Virus record (IMG/VR): IMGVR_UViG_3300037104_000796
Coordinates: 64,001 to 128,000 of that record
Direction: 5' to 3' (one strand)
Length of the DNA stretch: 64,000 nucleotides
Origin: a virus
Part shown: positions 37,267 to 58,813 of the stretch, piece after piece
Layout of the letters: each line of letters begins with the position of its first letter
Numbering within the stretch: the first letter of the stretch is position 1
The notes under the pieces: model-generated
Told to the model about the DNA's origin: nothing
Databases searched by the model: none
The model's input: only the letters and a program-made list of their open reading frames with translations
Made by a program: the position numbers and the translations under genes

Positions 37267-37646
37267 TAGTCATCTATTTGATTATCTAATCCCGCTTTTC
37301 CACTTTTCATAGCTTCTTCAGGTGTATTCCATTTATATGGCCCATCTCCCATATAAGGTTCTCCAGTATCTGGAATTGCAATATAAAATGTTTTAACTAT
37401 CGTTCCCTGTTTATCTCTTAATACTCCTAAAGCATTTACTTGTACAATTTTAAGATGAAGACTTCGATATTCAATTATGTCAATTATTTTTTCTTTAACC
37501 GGAAATTCATAAGCGCGCACACTCCAATCCCATTCATATTGTTTGTCCAATTTAGCCATTTGAGCATCATGTCCAATCTCCATATCTTTTATAGGATCTG
37601 AATCTTCGGTAAAGCCTAATGCTTCATATATAAATTGTGCTCTCAT
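37266..37646 (-). CDS. Tag-bearing protein
   Basis: MRAQFIYEALGFTEDSDPIKDMEIG. Confidence 0.8.
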   Translation of the reverse strand: MRAQFIYEALGFTEDSDPIKDMEIGHDAQMAKLDKQYEWDWSVRAYEFPVKEKIIDIIEYRSLHLKIVQVNALGVLRDKQGTIVKTFYIAIPDTGEPYMGDGPYKWNTPEEAMKSGKAGLDNQIDD

Positions 37647-38041
37647 TACTTTATAAGATAATTTTCTTCAGGCAATACCCTGTAAATGTTAAATACTGCA
37701 TCTCGTGAAGATGTTGCCTCGGCCTTTTTATCAAAAAAATATAATTCGGCTCCATTTAAATAGCTGTTATAATCATTTATAGTAAAAGTTATTCTATTAG
37801 TTTTTTTAAATGGCTTTTCTCTTACTGCTTTAACTTGTTCAAATATTCCAGAAATGATTTTTCCTTTTAATGAATTTAAAAAAACTTGCCATTTATCACG
37901 TTTCTTTCCAAAATCTTTAATTTTATCATTTTGTATAGTTTTAAGAGCTTCTGTTTTAAAATTTACATTGCTTCCAATACTCATATCATGAACAGGGTCA
38001 CTTACTTCATCAAACTTTTCAAATACAAATTGTGCTTTCAT
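37646..38041 (-). CDS. Tag-bearing protein (cargo family A)
   Basis: MKAQFVFEKFDEVSDPVHDMSIG. Confidence 0.8.
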   Translation of the reverse strand: MKAQFVFEKFDEVSDPVHDMSIGSNVNFKTEALKTIQNDKIKDFGKKRDKWQVFLNSLKGKIISGIFEQVKAVREKPFKKTNRITFTINDYNSYLNGAELYFFDKKAEATSSRDAVFNIYRVLPEENYLIK

Positions 38042-51950: not shown

Positions 51951-52811
51951 TTACTGAGCCAATTCAGGTGTCATATATGATTCAGCTATTTCCCAAAGTT
52001 TCTTATTGAAATCGATATGGCGAGCTGCATTATTGATACCTCTTGGTTTTGTCCTACGACCGTTCATTGTCTGACGATCAAATTCACCTTTTACAAGTCT
52101 TTCCTGTATAACATTGAATATCGTCCAAAGGTCTTCCTTTGCATCTTCTCCACGAAGTGGTTCAACTATCTGTGAAGGTTTTATGATAAAAGTGGCTTTC
52201 TTCATGTCTATCGTTCCGTCTTCTTTTACGAAAACGTGAGGTTCTCTGGCTGCAACTGCTTTTATAACGAACATTTCTCTTTCGTCTTGATTCAATTTAA
52301 CCTGCTGCATTTCCTCAATATGTGAACCAATAGTGTTGTACTGATTAGCAACAACTTCCATGAGTTGTTTAAGTTCAGTCATATCGATACCTACGTGACG
52401 TAATCTTACTGATGTGAACATACCTGGCATTGCGACTACAAGTCCGTTGGTACAAACCAGACGGAAAAGACCCATGTGAATTTGTGCGTTTGACATTCCA
52501 TTATGGGAGTTGTCGAGAACAATCTGAGGTTTAACCTTATCAGATCTGAGGTCCATGAAGCCAAGTTTGGGATTCGTTAAACGAACCATGTGGCGAGCGT
52601 AAGGGCCTGTACCATTTTGTCTGGCGTATGTCGGATTCCATCCGAGTAATTCAAATGCGTTAAGTAAATCGAGGGTTGGTACGAATGAGTACCTGGGAGA
52701 AACTTTTGGGCTTTCATGGGCTGAAAAAGCAGCCGGAGCATAGTTACGAATTTCATCAATAGATGCTACCTTGTAACCGATACTGGTAATTGGATTGACT
52801 TGAGTTGTCAT
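51951..52811 (-). CDS. DUF932 (DUF945) family protein
   Basis: APAAF...SPRYSFVPT, NSHNG, GLFRLVCTNGLV, DLWTIFNVIQE. Confidence 0.88.
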   Translation of the reverse strand: MTTQVNPITSIGYKVASIDEIRNYAPAAFSAHESPKVSPRYSFVPTLDLLNAFELLGWNPTYARQNGTGPYARHMVRLTNPKLGFMDLRSDKVKPQIVLDNSHNGMSNAQIHMGLFRLVCTNGLVVAMPGMFTSVRLRHVGIDMTELKQLMEVVANQYNTIGSHIEEMQQVKLNQDEREMFVIKAVAAREPHVFVKEDGTIDMKKATFIIKPSQIVEPLRGEDAKEDLWTIFNVIQERLVKGEFDRQTMNGRRTKPRGINNAARHIDFNKKLWEIAESYMTPELAQ

Positions 52812-56275: not shown

Positions 56276-56668
56276 ATGATACTCCCAGGAAACGAATCAA
56301 AAACACTCCCTATAATTATCTATGAAGAAATGAGGGGAACAATAGTAATAAAAGGTAGATCAATTTCTCCAGAAGTAGAAAGTTATTTCGCTGATTTTAC
56401 GCCTTATCTAGATGAATGCGTATCAAAAAATCCCATGGATTTGAAAATAGATATTGATCTCGAGTATTTCAATACCAAAACTGCTAAAATCATGATTAAA
56501 ATGCTTGACACACTTAAAAAAGTAGTAGAGACAGGTTTTAAAGTTGATGTAACGTGGTTTTACGAAGCAGATGATGAAGATATGTATGACGCAGGATTAG
56601 ATTATGAAGAACTATCAAAATTAAAATTCAATTTTGTTGAAAAACCAAGCACAGAAAAACCCGATTAA
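56276..56668 (+). CDS. siaC: SiaC family (DUF1987) regulatory phosphoprotein
   Basis: IKGRSI, LEYFNT, VTWFYEADDEDM..AG.DY. Confidence 0.82.
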   Translation: MILPGNESKTLPIIIYEEMRGTIVIKGRSISPEVESYFADFTPYLDECVSKNPMDLKIDIDLEYFNTKTAKIMIKMLDTLKKVVETGFKVDVTWFYEADDEDMYDAGLDYEELSKLKFNFVEKPSTEKPD

Positions 56669-56679
56669 CTCGGGTTTTT
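56656..56679. terminator. Bidirectional intrinsic terminator between convergent genes
   Basis: AAAACCCGA-TTAAC-TCGGGTTTT. Confidence 0.75.
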
Positions 56680-56682
56680 GTT

Positions 56683-56958
56683 TTATTCTGCATCTATATT
56701 TTGTGCATATTCAAAATTCATGAAATATTCTCGCTTATCAAGCAATTGATTTAGAATGTTATGATCTTCTATTCCAAACTGAGACATAAAATAATCATAA
56801 AGATCGCCATCTGTACTATTTTCATCATTTTCTAATGAAGATACTATATTGTACCAAGGCAAGCTTGGATTTTTTGTTGTTATGTCTTCATACCAAGCAA
56901 CAAATTCGTCTACTGTCATTCGTGGGTACATACTTTCATTTACTAATTTTGCTTTCAT
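56683..56958 (-). CDS. Small acidic protein with V-N-E leader
   Basis: MKAKLVNE start. Confidence 0.6.
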   Translation of the reverse strand: MKAKLVNESMYPRMTVDEFVAWYEDITTKNPSLPWYNIVSSLENDENSTDGDLYDYFMSQFGIEDHNILNQLLDKREYFMNFEYAQNIDAE

Positions 56959-56974: not shown

Positions 56975-57838
56975 TTAGTATATATTCACCTTTATAAATT
57001 CTTTAAACATCTTTACACTAAGATATTGAGTCGTGGTTGAGCGAGATTTTATTTCTTCATAGTGTTTATCACGAAACGTTGAGAGAAATTTCTCGAATTT
57101 TGGGCGTAACTTTTCATCAAGAAGATTAACACCTAAGCTAACTTCAAATTGAGGCTCTTTTGAAACGTTGCCAACTGCATATCCATAAGCAGCAATGTAA
57201 TACTGCCAGTGTTCATCAATCATACGTGAAAGATGATACTCTTTGATCGAAAAGTCTTTATCGATTCTTGCATCAGTTGTGTCATAACTGTTTCTTGGTG
57301 AGATGCTTTGATACACGTTAACACAAGTTTTGACTTTTTGTGAAAGTCCTCCACGATCTTTAGCTCCAGTGAATGTGATCTTTCCAAGCTGATCACTCTT
57401 AATCAGTTGAAGTGTTGGAACAGGATGCTTAACGTTGTAGAAGTACACAGGAGAGATGAAAACGACGTAATCTCCAAGTTCTGAAGCTTTCTTAGCGAAA
57501 GCAAGCCAGAGCTTACTGCCAGTGCCGTAAGGAGGTCCGGTGATAATGAGACGACCACGTTTGTAGGTCATCGGATTGTTATGAAGAAAGTCTTGCTTTT
57601 TAATTTTGGGATCGTCGGGATCAAGATCGTAATAGTGTACAGGAATGTTCAATTCGTGTGAGAGTTTGTCAAGATAGGGCCCGAATGCTAGATCACCTGC
57701 TGCGGGTTCTACGATGTCTGTAAGTTTATCAAGAGGGATATACTGACGTACCATTTCGAACACATGATCAAGAAGCTCAGGTGGAGCATAGTATTTGTCC
57801 ATTGTGTTAACTGCTTCGAATACAAATTGAGCTTTCAT
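56975..57838 (-). CDS. SAM-dependent amino-methyltransferase-like protein with MKAQFVFE leader
   Basis: DKYYAP, VEPAAGD (motif I), YDLDP, QDFL, IITGPPYG (motif IV variant), FISP. Confidence 0.8.
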   Translation of the reverse strand: MKAQFVFEAVNTMDKYYAPPELLDHVFEMVRQYIPLDKLTDIVEPAAGDLAFGPYLDKLSHELNIPVHYYDLDPDDPKIKKQDFLHNNPMTYKRGRLIITGPPYGTGSKLWLAFAKKASELGDYVVFISPVYFYNVKHPVPTLQLIKSDQLGKITFTGAKDRGGLSQKVKTCVNVYQSISPRNSYDTTDARIDKDFSIKEYHLSRMIDEHWQYYIAAYGYAVGNVSKEPQFEVSLGVNLLDEKLRPKFEKFLSTFRDKHYEEIKSRSTTTQYLSVKMFKEFIKVNIY

Positions 57839-57944: not shown

Positions 57945-58451
57945 CTATACTGTGTATCTCTTTACAAAATTTCCCAAATAACTTTGATTTTCCCTCAAAT
58001 ATTGTTCGATAAAGAAATATCTACTTGAGTTTCCCTCTTCTTCAGATACTCTTAATATGGGTTTATTAACATTCAAACATTCACGAAATCTATCTGTATT
58101 GATAAAAATCAATTCTGAAGGATTATCCGGAATATTGAAGATGATGAACATTGATTTTGAATCATCTAATGTATTTTTGAGATTATTGTCGTATAAAGTA
58201 AAAGATTTTGCCCACTTTACATCAATCGCAATACTTTCAATAATTCTTCCTTCACTATTTCGAAAAGGCTTGCTGCCTTCTTTAAAAGTTATTATGTAGT
58301 CAAATTTTTCTTTCATATCCTGATAACGTGAAGCTGGCATAACTTCTACTTCGTATCCTTGAGATTGAAAAAGTCTTCTAACTTTATGAGCTATAAACGG
58401 TTGTTGTCGAATACCATCTCGTTTATGCTGGTTGCTTCCATACATATTCAT
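57945..58451 (-). CDS. PD-(D/E)xK nuclease-like protein
   Basis: QDMKEKFDY...AIDVK. Confidence 0.5.
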   Translation of the reverse strand: MNMYGSNQHKRDGIRQQPFIAHKVRRLFQSQGYEVEVMPASRYQDMKEKFDYIITFKEGSKPFRNSEGRIIESIAIDVKWAKSFTLYDNNLKNTLDDSKSMFIIFNIPDNPSELIFINTDRFRECLNVNKPILRVSEEEGNSSRYFFIEQYLRENQSYLGNFVKRYTV

Positions 58452-58723
58452 TTTTTTCGTAATTTAGGTGATGCCGGCATACCTGCAGCCGACAAATATA
58501 TTTCCGTCAGGAACTTTTGCATGTTAGCCAATTGGTATATATTGCCTGCAGTTAATGTGTACTGGAATGCCTTCTCTTTAGACACGGATGTATCTGGATT
58601 GTAAAGGATACGTTTCAATTCATGCTTCAATTGTTCAAGACTATACTTATTAATGTTGATAATAATAGGTTCCAATTGTTTACCTACTGCCATGCTACTT
58701 TCAATTCGTGTTAAATCTCTCAT
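58448..58723 (-). CDS. Hypothetical protein
   Basis: ORF downstream of early-type motif. Confidence 0.55.
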   Translation of the reverse strand: MRDLTRIESSMAVGKQLEPIIININKYSLEQLKHELKRILYNPDTSVSKEKAFQYTLTAGNIYQLANMQKFLTEIYLSAAGMPASPKLRKK

Positions 58724-58813
58724 AATACATATTTTATGTTACATATTTATTGTAAATATAACAACAAAAACCCAATAAGAAAAACTTATTGGGTTAAATG
58801 TTTGTTAATTTAT

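What the first reader, a model, noticed from the sequence alone, without database searches (positions are those of the whole stretch)
56975..57838. Methyltransferase-like gene with the same 8-aa leader as a tagged protein, an altered catalytic motif and atypical composition
The N-terminus MKAQFVFE is identical to that of 37646..38041 and is joined directly to an amino-MTase fold. Motif IV reads TGPPYG rather than (N/D/S)PP(Y/F). The gene is visibly richer in G+C than its flanks (33/60 at 57481-57540) with many C/G-ending codons. Inference: an acquired MTase given a packaging leader, to be injected with the DNA as a protective MTase or as a catalytically altered SAM-binding or decoy protein.
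Basis: partly seen in the sequence, partly recalled or inferred. Interest (0 to 1): 0.75.

Follow-up and report, generated by a model that had tools for sequence, protein, structure and literature searches.

The report
Leader-tagged dead methyltransferase in giant phage
A large T4-type phage encodes a DNA-methyltransferase look-alike that has lost the two residues needed to transfer a methyl group and has gained the short "load into the head, then cut off" style leader used by this phage's cargo proteins, so it is probably a non-catalytic protein delivered with the DNA, although packaging has not been measured.

Summary
ORF 56975..57838(-) starts with MKAQFVFE, as does the tagged protein at 37646..38041(-). 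Its motif IV reads TGPPYG. Its codon usage is unusual for this genome (GC3 z 2.75; CTN-Leu rank 1 of 188).

It belongs to a large family with no Pfam or NCBIfam model, related to M.TaqI-type gamma-class N6-adenine DNA methyltransferases (profile hit E 1.7e-4; AF2 pLDDT 91.6; M.BseCI, CamA and M.TaqI Z~13 over both domains).

Of 149 family representatives that could be scored, 124 have NPP(Y/F), a motif-X Thr/Ser and no leader. The other 25 have GPP(Y/F) with Ala/Val; 23 of them were put on a tree and sit on one side of a single branch. These two switches match the M.TaqI N105-T23 catalytic pair. Twenty of the 25 carry the leader, and none of the 124 do.

Leaderless relatives begin exactly at residue 9, and two fossils keep the old Met after the leader. 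The gene is under purifying selection (dN/dS ~0.12-0.16). It is linked, and in four relatives fused, to a small acidic leader-bearing protein.

Best reading: a head-targeted pseudo-methyltransferase. Packaging, cleavage and function are inferred, not shown. An earlier report from this scan described the leader/tag system on this same genome.

The parts
57815..57838 (-). 8-codon leader MKAQFVFE, ending in a V-x-E site (P3 hydrophobic, P1 Glu).
   Evidence: Identical peptide on 37646..38041(-) with 2 synonymous DNA differences. AF2 pLDDT is below 50 for residues 1-9. Leaderless relatives start at residue 9. The same x-x-E junction precedes the second-tier tag inside polyproteins.
56975..57814 (-). 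Body of the methyltransferase-like protein (residues 9-287). It has a Rossmann MTase domain (about 9-183) and a C-terminal module of about 100 aa (about 185-287) in the place where M.TaqI has its DNA-recognition domain. Key residues are A18 (M.TaqI T23), E44-PAAGDLAF (motif I with G50L), D71, D83-F84, G101-PPY104 (M.TaqI N105-PPY108).
56683..56958 (-). Partner gene: a 91-aa acidic helical protein with its own leader, MKAKLVNE. The part after the leader has pI 4.05.
   Evidence: Adjacent here and on the P0002 contig, near in L001, L004 and L016, and fused to the MTase-like protein in P0008, P0009, P0017 and L007 through a ..xNE|S junction. AF2 pLDDT is 85, and Foldseek finds no significant PDB match.
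56655..56679 (.). Two-way terminator-like hairpin that closes the minus-strand unit and the convergent SiaC-family gene.
57945..58723 (-). Two upstream genes of the same terminator-bounded unit (91 aa and 168 aa, overlapping by 4 nt). Function unknown. Conserved upstream of the ortholog in L012.
   Evidence: 56% and 65% identity to the L012 pair.
37646..38041 (-). Tagged protein with the identical leader, followed by the second-tier tag KFDEVSDPVHDMSIG.

Best explanation
The gene encodes a pseudo-methyltransferase that this phage lineage has recruited as head cargo.

Shown:
- It descends from a large family of small two-domain N6-adenine DNA methyltransferases of the M.TaqI (gamma) type.
- In one clade of that family, the catalytic Asn of motif IV became Gly and the motif-X Thr that holds it became Ala. 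These are the only two fixed switches.
- Most of that clade also gained an N-terminal leader that ends in hydrophobic-x-Glu.
- The clade stays under strong purifying selection.
- It is linked or fused to a small acidic protein that carries the same kind of leader.

Inferred, by analogy with the 10-residue capsid targeting sequence of T4 internal proteins, which gp21 removes after (L/I)-x-E:
- The leader docks the 287-aa precursor in the assembling prohead.
- A head protease cuts after Glu8. This leaves a 279-aa, 32-kDa protein starting AVNTMDKYYAPP, the same register as the Met-trimmed leaderless enzymes.
- The protein travels with the DNA into the next cell.

More speculative: it acts there by binding rather than methylating. 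It keeps the PPY aromatic platform, the ribose- and adenine-binding acids (D71, D83-F84) and a conserved recognition-like C-terminal module. Its target would be DNA, a host SAM-dependent defence enzyme, or the cofactor. In this phage the SAM loop also carries Gly50-to-Leu, so even cofactor binding may be weakened.
For: Fold and family:
- The profile of 54 family members hits M.TaqI at E 1.7e-4, with motifs I, III and IV aligned and G101 on N105.
- AF2 gives pLDDT 91.6, with residues 1-9 disordered.
- The top Foldseek hits are M.BseCI and M.TaqI.
- VIA-align gives Z 15 for METTL5/PH1948 on residues 8-183, and Z 13 over 240-260 residues for M.BseCI, CamA and M.TaqI. Model residues 15/16 align to TaqI 20/21, so A18 corresponds to T23.

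Loss of the catalytic pair:
- In M.TaqI, N105 accepts the proton and is positioned by an H-bond from T23 (PMC3814359).
- The tally is 124 Asn+Thr/Ser representatives against 25 Gly+Ala/Val, with no mixed forms (with P0010 and P0018 corrected by eye).
- T18A and N101G are the only two fixed switches in the alignment. E149, N174, D123 and N135 lose conservation in the Gly clade, and the C-terminal module gains it.
- The 23 Gly-type rows put on the tree sit on one side of a branch (94/95).

Leader as a module:
- 20 of 25 Gly-type proteins carry it, against 0 of 124 Asn-type.
- P0028 and P0007 keep the old Met after the leader.
- Internal junctions of the fusions read ..INE|S..MNE|S and ..LDE|S, followed by a tag.
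- Loci with leader-bearing Gly-type genes are full of leader and tag proteins. The loci of a canonical member and of a leaderless Gly-type member have none.

T4 precedent: the first 10 residues are sufficient for packaging, and residues 8 and 10 govern cutting (PMC9026906). The T4 sequence is MKTYQEFIAE (PMC8442874).

Selection: dN/dS is 0.12-0.16 against two orthologs, and TGPPYG is invariant in 12 relatives down to 32% identity.
Against: - There are no virion proteome, expression-timing or cleavage data.
- No gp21-type protease (PF03420) or gp23 (PF07068) was found in the 162-kb record. That search rang nowhere, and CheckV rates the record about 40% complete, so the cutting enzyme is unidentified here.
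- T4-type late promoters (TATAAATA) are not enriched.
- The protein has only the first tier of the two-tier address. It lacks the KFxExSDPIxDMGIG tag that follows the leader on most cargo candidates.
- Motifs I-III and PPY are kept in most clade members, so a residual or altered transferase activity is not excluded.
- Five Gly-type representatives have no leader, so the loss of the catalytic pair is not tied strictly to the leader.
Confidence: 0.5

Rival explanations
1. It is still an active transferase with an unusual motif IV (GPPY). The clade would have changed substrate or chemistry, for example to another nucleophile, a modified base, RNA or protein. The leader would simply deliver a working enzyme into the next cell, in the manner of T4 Alt.
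For: Motif I (E-P-x-A-G-x-G-x-F), D71, D83-F84, PPY and F114 stay nearly invariant across the Gly clade. Purifying selection is strong. Replacing Asn with Gly enlarges the pocket rather than filling it.
Against: Both members of the N105-T23 pair that act in adenine-N6 methylation are gone together in all 25 representatives. Four other positions conserved in the canonical family lose conservation. In this phage, in P0002 and in P0018, the SAM-loop Gly is Leu.
Confidence: 0.15
2. The leader is not a head-loading signal. It would be a handle for another phage machine (an earlier scan note links the tag to an AAA+ ATPase and protease pair) or a cell-internal address. The protein would then work inside the infected cell, for example as the non-catalytic subunit of a neighbouring Eco57I-type methyltransferase, as METTL14 does for METTL3.
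For: A canonical MTase gene (Eco57I-like or N6_N4) lies within about 6 kb in 6 of 9 contexts of Gly-type genes: L001, L007, L010, L012, L013 and L016. In L010 the leaderless Gly-type gene overlaps a gene that has YTP and NPPY but no recognisable Gly-rich motif I. A leader-bearing ATPase exists in this genome. No head protease was found.
Against: No canonical (D/N)PP(Y/F) ORF exists in the 162-kb record held, nor on the P0002 contig. The leader ends in the hydrophobic-x-Glu rule of T4-type head proteases, and the same rule marks module borders in polyproteins. The phage has a T4-type portal.
Confidence: 0.25
3. It is a decaying relic of a methyltransferase with no present function, and the shared leader comes from a recombination accident.
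For: The catalytic residues are lost, and Gly50 is Leu in this copy.
Against: dN/dS is 0.12-0.16. There are 25 clusters at the 50% level with invariant TGPPYG-type motifs and a better conserved C-terminal module. The leader is conserved as a peptide, with synonymous and conservative codon changes. Linkage and fusion to the partner are conserved.
Confidence: 0.05

Closest known systems
M.TaqI, M.BseCI and CamA: gamma-class N6-adenine DNA methyltransferases
   Same: Two-domain layout: a Rossmann MTase domain followed by a C-terminal domain. Motif order is X-I-II-III-IV. The sequence matches at motifs I, III and IV, with Z about 13 over 240-260 residues.
   Different: It is much smaller (279 aa against 421-580). 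The catalytic Asn105 equivalent is Gly and the Thr23 equivalent is Ala. It carries an added N-terminal leader. No Pfam or NCBIfam model covers the family.
T4 internal proteins IPI-III and Alt, with the capsid targeting sequence cut by gp21
   Same: A short N-terminal peptide that starts MK, is partly hydrophobic, ends in hydrophobic-x-Glu, and is shared by unrelated proteins (MKAQFVFE against MKTYQEFIAE). The phage has a T4-type portal, UvsX and topoisomerase II.
   Different: The sequences are not alignable beyond the pattern. Here the system has a second-tier tag, which this protein lacks. No gp21 homolog was found in the partial record. Nothing has been shown by experiment.
Phage P1 DarB and the Dar antirestriction system
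   Same: A protein packed into the head through an N-terminal signal, released with the DNA, and acting against type I restriction (PMC9024508, PMC12810830). From my own knowledge, not checked here, DarB carries methyltransferase-like and helicase motifs.
   Different: DarB is 250 kDa, multi-domain, and needs other Dar proteins for loading. No sequence relation was tested or seen. Here the protein is a 32-kDa single MTase-like unit with the catalytic pair lost.
METTL14 (EPPL), the inactive partner of METTL3
   Same: An MTase-fold protein whose motif IV has lost the catalytic residue and which is kept for binding (established knowledge). Gly-type genes often have active-looking MTase genes nearby.
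   Different: It belongs to a different MTase class (MT-A70). No partner MTase is present in this record, and heterodimer formation was not tested.

Membership tests
Gamma-class N6-adenine DNA methyltransferase (M.TaqI-like), as an active enzyme | Class I Rossmann MTase fold with motif order X, I, II, III, IV. | tested here: met
   AF2 pLDDT 91.6. Z is 13-15 to METTL5, KsgA, M.BseCI, CamA and M.TaqI. The profile hits M.TaqI at E 1.7e-4.
Gamma-class N6-adenine DNA methyltransferase (M.TaqI-like), as an active enzyme | Motif IV (D/N/S)PP(Y/F/W) with the catalytic Asp or Asn. | tested here: not met
   The motif reads TG101PPY, with G101 aligned to M.TaqI N105. Gly occupies this position in all 25 clade representatives.
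Gamma-class N6-adenine DNA methyltransferase (M.TaqI-like), as an active enzyme | Motif-X Thr (the TP of YTP/ETP) that positions the catalytic residue. | tested here: not met
   A18 replaces it, against Thr/Ser in 124 of 124 canonical members. The role of T23 comes from PMC3814359.
Gamma-class N6-adenine DNA methyltransferase (M.TaqI-like), as an active enzyme | Gly-rich SAM loop of motif I, (D/E)-P-x-x-G-x-G-x-F. | tested here: inconclusive
   The loop reads EPAAGDLAF. The second Gly is Leu here, in P0002 and in P0018, while 91% of the clade keeps Gly. The effect on SAM binding was not measured.
Gamma-class N6-adenine DNA methyltransferase (M.TaqI-like), as an active enzyme | Methyl transfer to adenine N6 in DNA. 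| not testable with these tools
   This needs an enzyme assay or a methylome.
T4-type capsid-targeted internal protein (CTS cargo) | A short N-terminal peptide shared by unrelated proteins and ending in (L/I/V)-x-E. | tested here: met
   MKAQFVFE is identical to 37646..38041. About 20 ORFs of the record carry leaders of this type.
T4-type capsid-targeted internal protein (CTS cargo) | A phage with T4-type head machinery, including a gp21-like prohead protease. | tested here: inconclusive
   A T4-type portal is present. Searches with PF03420 and PF07068 gave no hit, but the controls did not ring either and the record is about 40% complete.
T4-type capsid-targeted internal protein (CTS cargo) | Presence in the virion and removal of the leader. 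| not testable with these tools
   This needs virion mass spectrometry or N-terminal sequencing.
This genome's two-tier tagged cargo set (leader plus KFxExSDPIxDMGIG) | The second-tier tag directly after the leader. | tested here: not met
   After E8 comes AVNTMDKYYAPP, the start of the MTase body. The window has 14 DP[IVLM]xDM sites, none in this ORF. In relatives the tag follows the MTase-like module, at the fusion junction.

The most novel reading that the evidence does not exclude
A family of capsid-delivered pseudo-methyltransferases. A phage lineage took a small adenine methyltransferase, removed its catalytic Asn-Thr pair, gave it a head-loading leader, and now injects it, together with a small acidic partner, to disarm SAM-dependent host defences (type I/III restriction, BREX-type systems) by binding rather than by methylating. 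It would be the first pseudoenzyme described among phage ejection proteins.
Probability: 0.2. Interest if true: 0.75.

Novelty: new variant of a known kind. Interest (0 to 1): 0.55.

Why it matters
Phage proteins that ride in the capsid and enter the cell with the DNA act before any phage gene is expressed. The known ones (T4 IPI and Alt, the P1 Dar proteins) are counter-defence or host-takeover factors.

This case gives a clean, datable series: leaderless active-looking enzyme, then loss of the catalytic pair, then gain of a leader, then fusion into cargo polyproteins. It therefore shows how such cargo is recruited from ordinary enzymes.

It also defines an uncatalogued methyltransferase family (664 representatives at the 50% level with E up to 0.001, and no Pfam or NCBIfam model) and a 25-cluster pseudoenzyme clade within it. 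Both can be tested directly by virion proteomics and a simple methylation assay.

If the protein blocks a host defence by binding, it would be a new type of anti-restriction factor.

Tried and rejected
- Pfam, NCBIfam and single-sequence PDB searches of the protein gave nothing useful. PHROGs gave only phrog_5172 of unknown function.
- Megablast of the locus against GenBank phages gave no match.
- The profile of the ten nearest canonical relatives (A4) gave no PDB hit.
- Searches of the record for PF03420 (gp21 protease) and PF07068 (gp23) rang nowhere, controls included, so they say nothing.
- TATAAATA (the T4 late promoter) occurs 8 times against 14 expected, so expression timing cannot be read from it. 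The sigma-70-type scan was below its shuffles.
- Complex prediction of the mature MTase-like protein with the mature 91-aa partner gave no verdict (score 0.01). It counts neither for nor against binding.
- Foldseek of the partner model against PDB found nothing with E up to 0.001.
- The idea that 51951..52811 (286 aa, also GC-rich) is a paralog was rejected on reading its sequence.
- The idea that the 168-aa upstream gene matches the 171-aa gene upstream in L007 was rejected. It has no PDB sequence match either.
- A literature search for the tag core DMGIG found only unrelated GIGYF papers.
- A recent horizontal transfer as the cause of the codon bias was considered. It is not favoured, because a 68%-identical ortholog shares the bias.

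Full report
**1. What is there**

The window is bases 64001-128000 of a 162,358-bp viral record with 31% G+C. CheckV rates the record about 40% complete. It encodes a T4-type portal, UvsX, a DnaB-like helicase, an SbcC-like protein and topoisomerase II, so it is a large T4-related phage. A Bacteroidales MAG carries a family member. PorP/SprF and SiaC genes and lipoprotein signal peptides lie nearby. Together these hint at a Bacteroidota host.

ORF 56975..57838(-) encodes 287 aa starting MKAQFVFEAVNTMDKYYAPP. ORF 37646..38041(-) starts MKAQFVFEKFDEVSDPVHDMSIG. The two leaders differ at two synonymous bases. Orthologs vary the leader only by synonymous or conservative changes (K/R, Q/R, V/I), and the internal Met13 is not conserved. 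The leader is therefore translated and selected as a peptide.

**2. Composition**

Against 188 ORFs of the record, the gene ranks:
- 4th in GC (z 2.1)
- 4th in GC3 (z 2.75)
- 3rd in C-ending NNY codons
- 1st in CTN leucine codons (0.88 against a mean of 0.38)

The ortholog in L001 (68% identical) is also GC3-rich against its neighbours (0.326 against about 0.19). The 49%-identical one in L004 is not. The bias is real and old within the closest subclade. It does not by itself show recent transfer.

**3. Fold and family**

Pfam, NCBIfam and a single-sequence PDB search give nothing; PHROGs gives one family of unknown function. An exhaustive search finds 664 representatives at E up to 0.001.

- A 54-sequence profile hits M.TaqI (E 1.7e-4) with motif I (EPsAGdGaF on EPACAHGPF), motif III (qdFl on ADFL) and motif IV (ignPPyg on LGNPPYG) in register.
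- The AF2 model has pLDDT 91.6, and only residues 1-9 fall below 50.
- Foldseek ranks M.BseCI and M.TaqI first.
- VIA-align gives Z 15 for the Rossmann domain against METTL5 and PH1948. It gives Z about 13 over 240-260 residues, both domains, against M.BseCI, CamA and M.TaqI.

The protein therefore has the fold of a gamma-class N6-adenine methyltransferase, with a small C-terminal module where those enzymes have their DNA-recognition domain.

**4. The catalytic pair is gone, clade-wide**

Of the 159 retrieved relatives, 149 could be scored for both motifs:
- 124 have NPP(Y/F) with Thr (one Ser) in the motif-X YTP, and no leader.
- 25 have GPP(Y/F) with Ala (one Val).
- None are mixed.

P0010 and P0018 were corrected by eye.

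A column-by-column comparison of 23 Gly-type and 31 Asn-type sequences finds exactly two fixed switches, T18A and N101G. Four further positions (D123, N135, E149, N174) are conserved in the canonical set and lose conservation in the Gly set. Several positions of the C-terminal module become more conserved. In a maximum-likelihood tree the 23 Gly-type rows sit on one side of a branch with support 94/95.

The structural alignment puts model residues 15/16 on M.TaqI 20/21, so A18 corresponds to T23. The profile alignment puts G101 on N105. In M.TaqI, N105 is the proton acceptor for adenine N6, and it is positioned by a hydrogen bond from T23 (PMC3814359). The two switches thus remove both members of one functional pair.

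In this phage, in P0002 and in P0018, the second Gly of the SAM loop is also Leu.

Even so, the gene is under purifying selection (dN/dS 0.12-0.16 against two orthologs, with dS near saturation). TGPPYG is invariant in 12 relatives down to 32% identity.

**5. The leader is an added module**

Many canonical members begin M-A-V-N-x-x-DKYYTP and align query residue 9 to target residue 2. Examples are a Bacteroidales MAG gene (MPVNENNKYYTP..IGNPPF) and the Felixounavirus gene next to rIIA/rIIB (MAKAELDKYYTP..TNPPFG).

- 20 of 25 Gly-type representatives carry a leader of the form M(K/R)A..(V/I/L)xE, against 0 of 124 canonical ones.
- Two sequences keep the ancestral Met behind the leader: MRARLVLE|MAVNTDDKYY in P0028 and MKALYVSKTLNE|MAVNELDKYY in P0007.
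- A cut after Glu8 would leave AVNTMDKYY. A leaderless enzyme has this same N-terminus once its Met is trimmed before Ala (established rule of Met excision).

Elsewhere in the window, the same hydrophobic-x-Glu ending precedes the second-tier tag KFxExSDPIxDMGIG, both at N-termini and inside polyproteins.

In P0008, P0009, P0017, P0018 and L007 the MTase-like module is the first unit of a longer protein. The junction reads ..INE|S..MNE|S or ..LDE|S, followed by a tag and another module.

Loci with leader-bearing Gly-type genes are rich in leader and tag proteins. The loci of a canonical member (L009) and of a leaderless Gly-type member (L010) have none.

The pattern matches the T4 capsid targeting sequence. 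There the first 10 residues of IPIII suffice for head incorporation, residues 8 and 10 govern cutting, and gp21 cleaves after Glu (PMC9026906). The T4 sequence is MKTYQEFIAE (PMC8442874).

An earlier report of this scan (e1-5661467) reached the same reading for the leader and tag system on this genome. I used it as a lead and re-derived the points above independently.

**6. Partner and neighbourhood**

The next gene, 56683..56958(-), encodes a 91-aa protein with its own leader, MKAKLVNE. After the leader it is strongly acidic (pI 4.05) and is predicted to be helical (pLDDT 85). Foldseek finds no significant PDB match.

Its family lies:
- directly downstream here and on the P0002 contig
- one gene away in L001
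- upstream in L004
- upstream in L016, in two copies
- fused to the MTase-like protein in P0008, P0009, P0017 and L007

Terminator-like hairpins at 58769-58795 and 56655-56679 bound a four-gene minus-strand unit. Its first two genes (91 and 168 aa, function unknown) are also conserved upstream of the ortholog in L012.

In 6 of 9 contexts a canonical MTase gene (Eco57I-like or N6_N4) lies within about 6 kb. No (D/N)PP(Y/F) ORF exists in the record held here.

**7. Reading**

Shown:
- the fold
- the family
- the coupled loss of the catalytic pair in one clade
- purifying selection
- the modular leader and its restriction to that clade
- the partner linkage

Inferred: head loading, cutting after Glu8 and delivery into the next cell. 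These rest on the T4 analogy and on P1 DarB, a head-packaged antirestriction protein with an N-terminal packaging signal (PMC9024508; PMC12810830).

Speculative: action by binding DNA, cofactor or a host SAM-dependent defence enzyme.

The main rivals are an active enzyme with changed chemistry, and a cell-internal role as the non-catalytic partner of a neighbouring methyltransferase, with the leader serving another machine.

**8. Novelty**

Capsid targeting leaders and packaged counter-defence proteins are known. Pseudo-methyltransferases are known in eukaryotes. A leader-bearing, catalytically disarmed clade of a phage adenine-methyltransferase family has not been described, as far as the tools and papers at hand show. 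I rate it a new variant of a known kind, of moderate interest, and directly testable.

Noticed in passing
P0014 (L009:5053-8772), also P0021, P0025, P0027, P0040: The nearest canonical (NPPY) relatives carry 2-9 extra tandem copies of the C-terminal module of about 100 aa (query residues about 185-287). P0014 has about nine in 1239 aa. If this module is the target-recognition domain, these could be multispecific adenine methyltransferases, like the multi-TRD cytosine methyltransferases of Bacillus phages.
   Followed up: partly
L016:2503-3840; L012:6788-7977; L007:8083-9385; L001:158-1021: An Eco57I-like methyltransferase near the Gly-type gene occurs in several forms: as a C-terminal half (starting MKFDVV.GNPPF), as an N-terminal half (..DFTP..GNGNF), or as a C-half-then-N-half permuted fusion (L016, where motif IV reads TNSPF). 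It often has an HTH plus HNH or a GIY-YIG endonuclease gene beside or between the halves.
   Followed up: no
L010:294-2581: A leaderless Gly-type protein (P0100: motif I present, catalytic pair absent) overlaps a 387-aa gene (P0168) that has YTP and NPPY but no recognisable Gly-rich motif I. The two defects look complementary and may mark a heteromeric enzyme.
   Followed up: no
L012:2846-6367: A 1173-aa ResIII helicase plus Eco57I methylase fusion lies between the conserved 168-aa gene and the Gly-type gene in a relative. Here those two genes are 106 bp apart. From my own knowledge, not checked here, phage P1 DarB has a similar methylase-plus-helicase architecture.
   Followed up: no
window 57945-58723 (-): A conserved overlapping pair of 91 aa (basic, GC3 0.35) and 168 aa lies upstream in the same unit. 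The 168-aa protein has a D..(I)DVK stretch that could be a PD-(D/E)xK nuclease motif. It has no family or PDB sequence match.
   Followed up: partly
window 56276-56668 (+): A SiaC-family (PF09345) gene converges on the partner gene. It keeps this position in L001 and on the P0002 contig, an odd conserved neighbour for a phage cargo gene.
   Followed up: no
window 51951-52811 (-): A 286-aa gene has the highest GC in the window (0.41) and a similar codon bias (CTN/Leu 0.71). It is unrelated in sequence to the MTase-like gene.
   Followed up: partly
L007:10001-14697: This 137-kb relative uses the same first-tier leaders but a different second-tier tag, (S/N)xxFERGxDPxxxxxIG(R/K). The tag therefore evolves by lineage while the hydrophobic-x-Glu junction stays.
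   Followed up: partly
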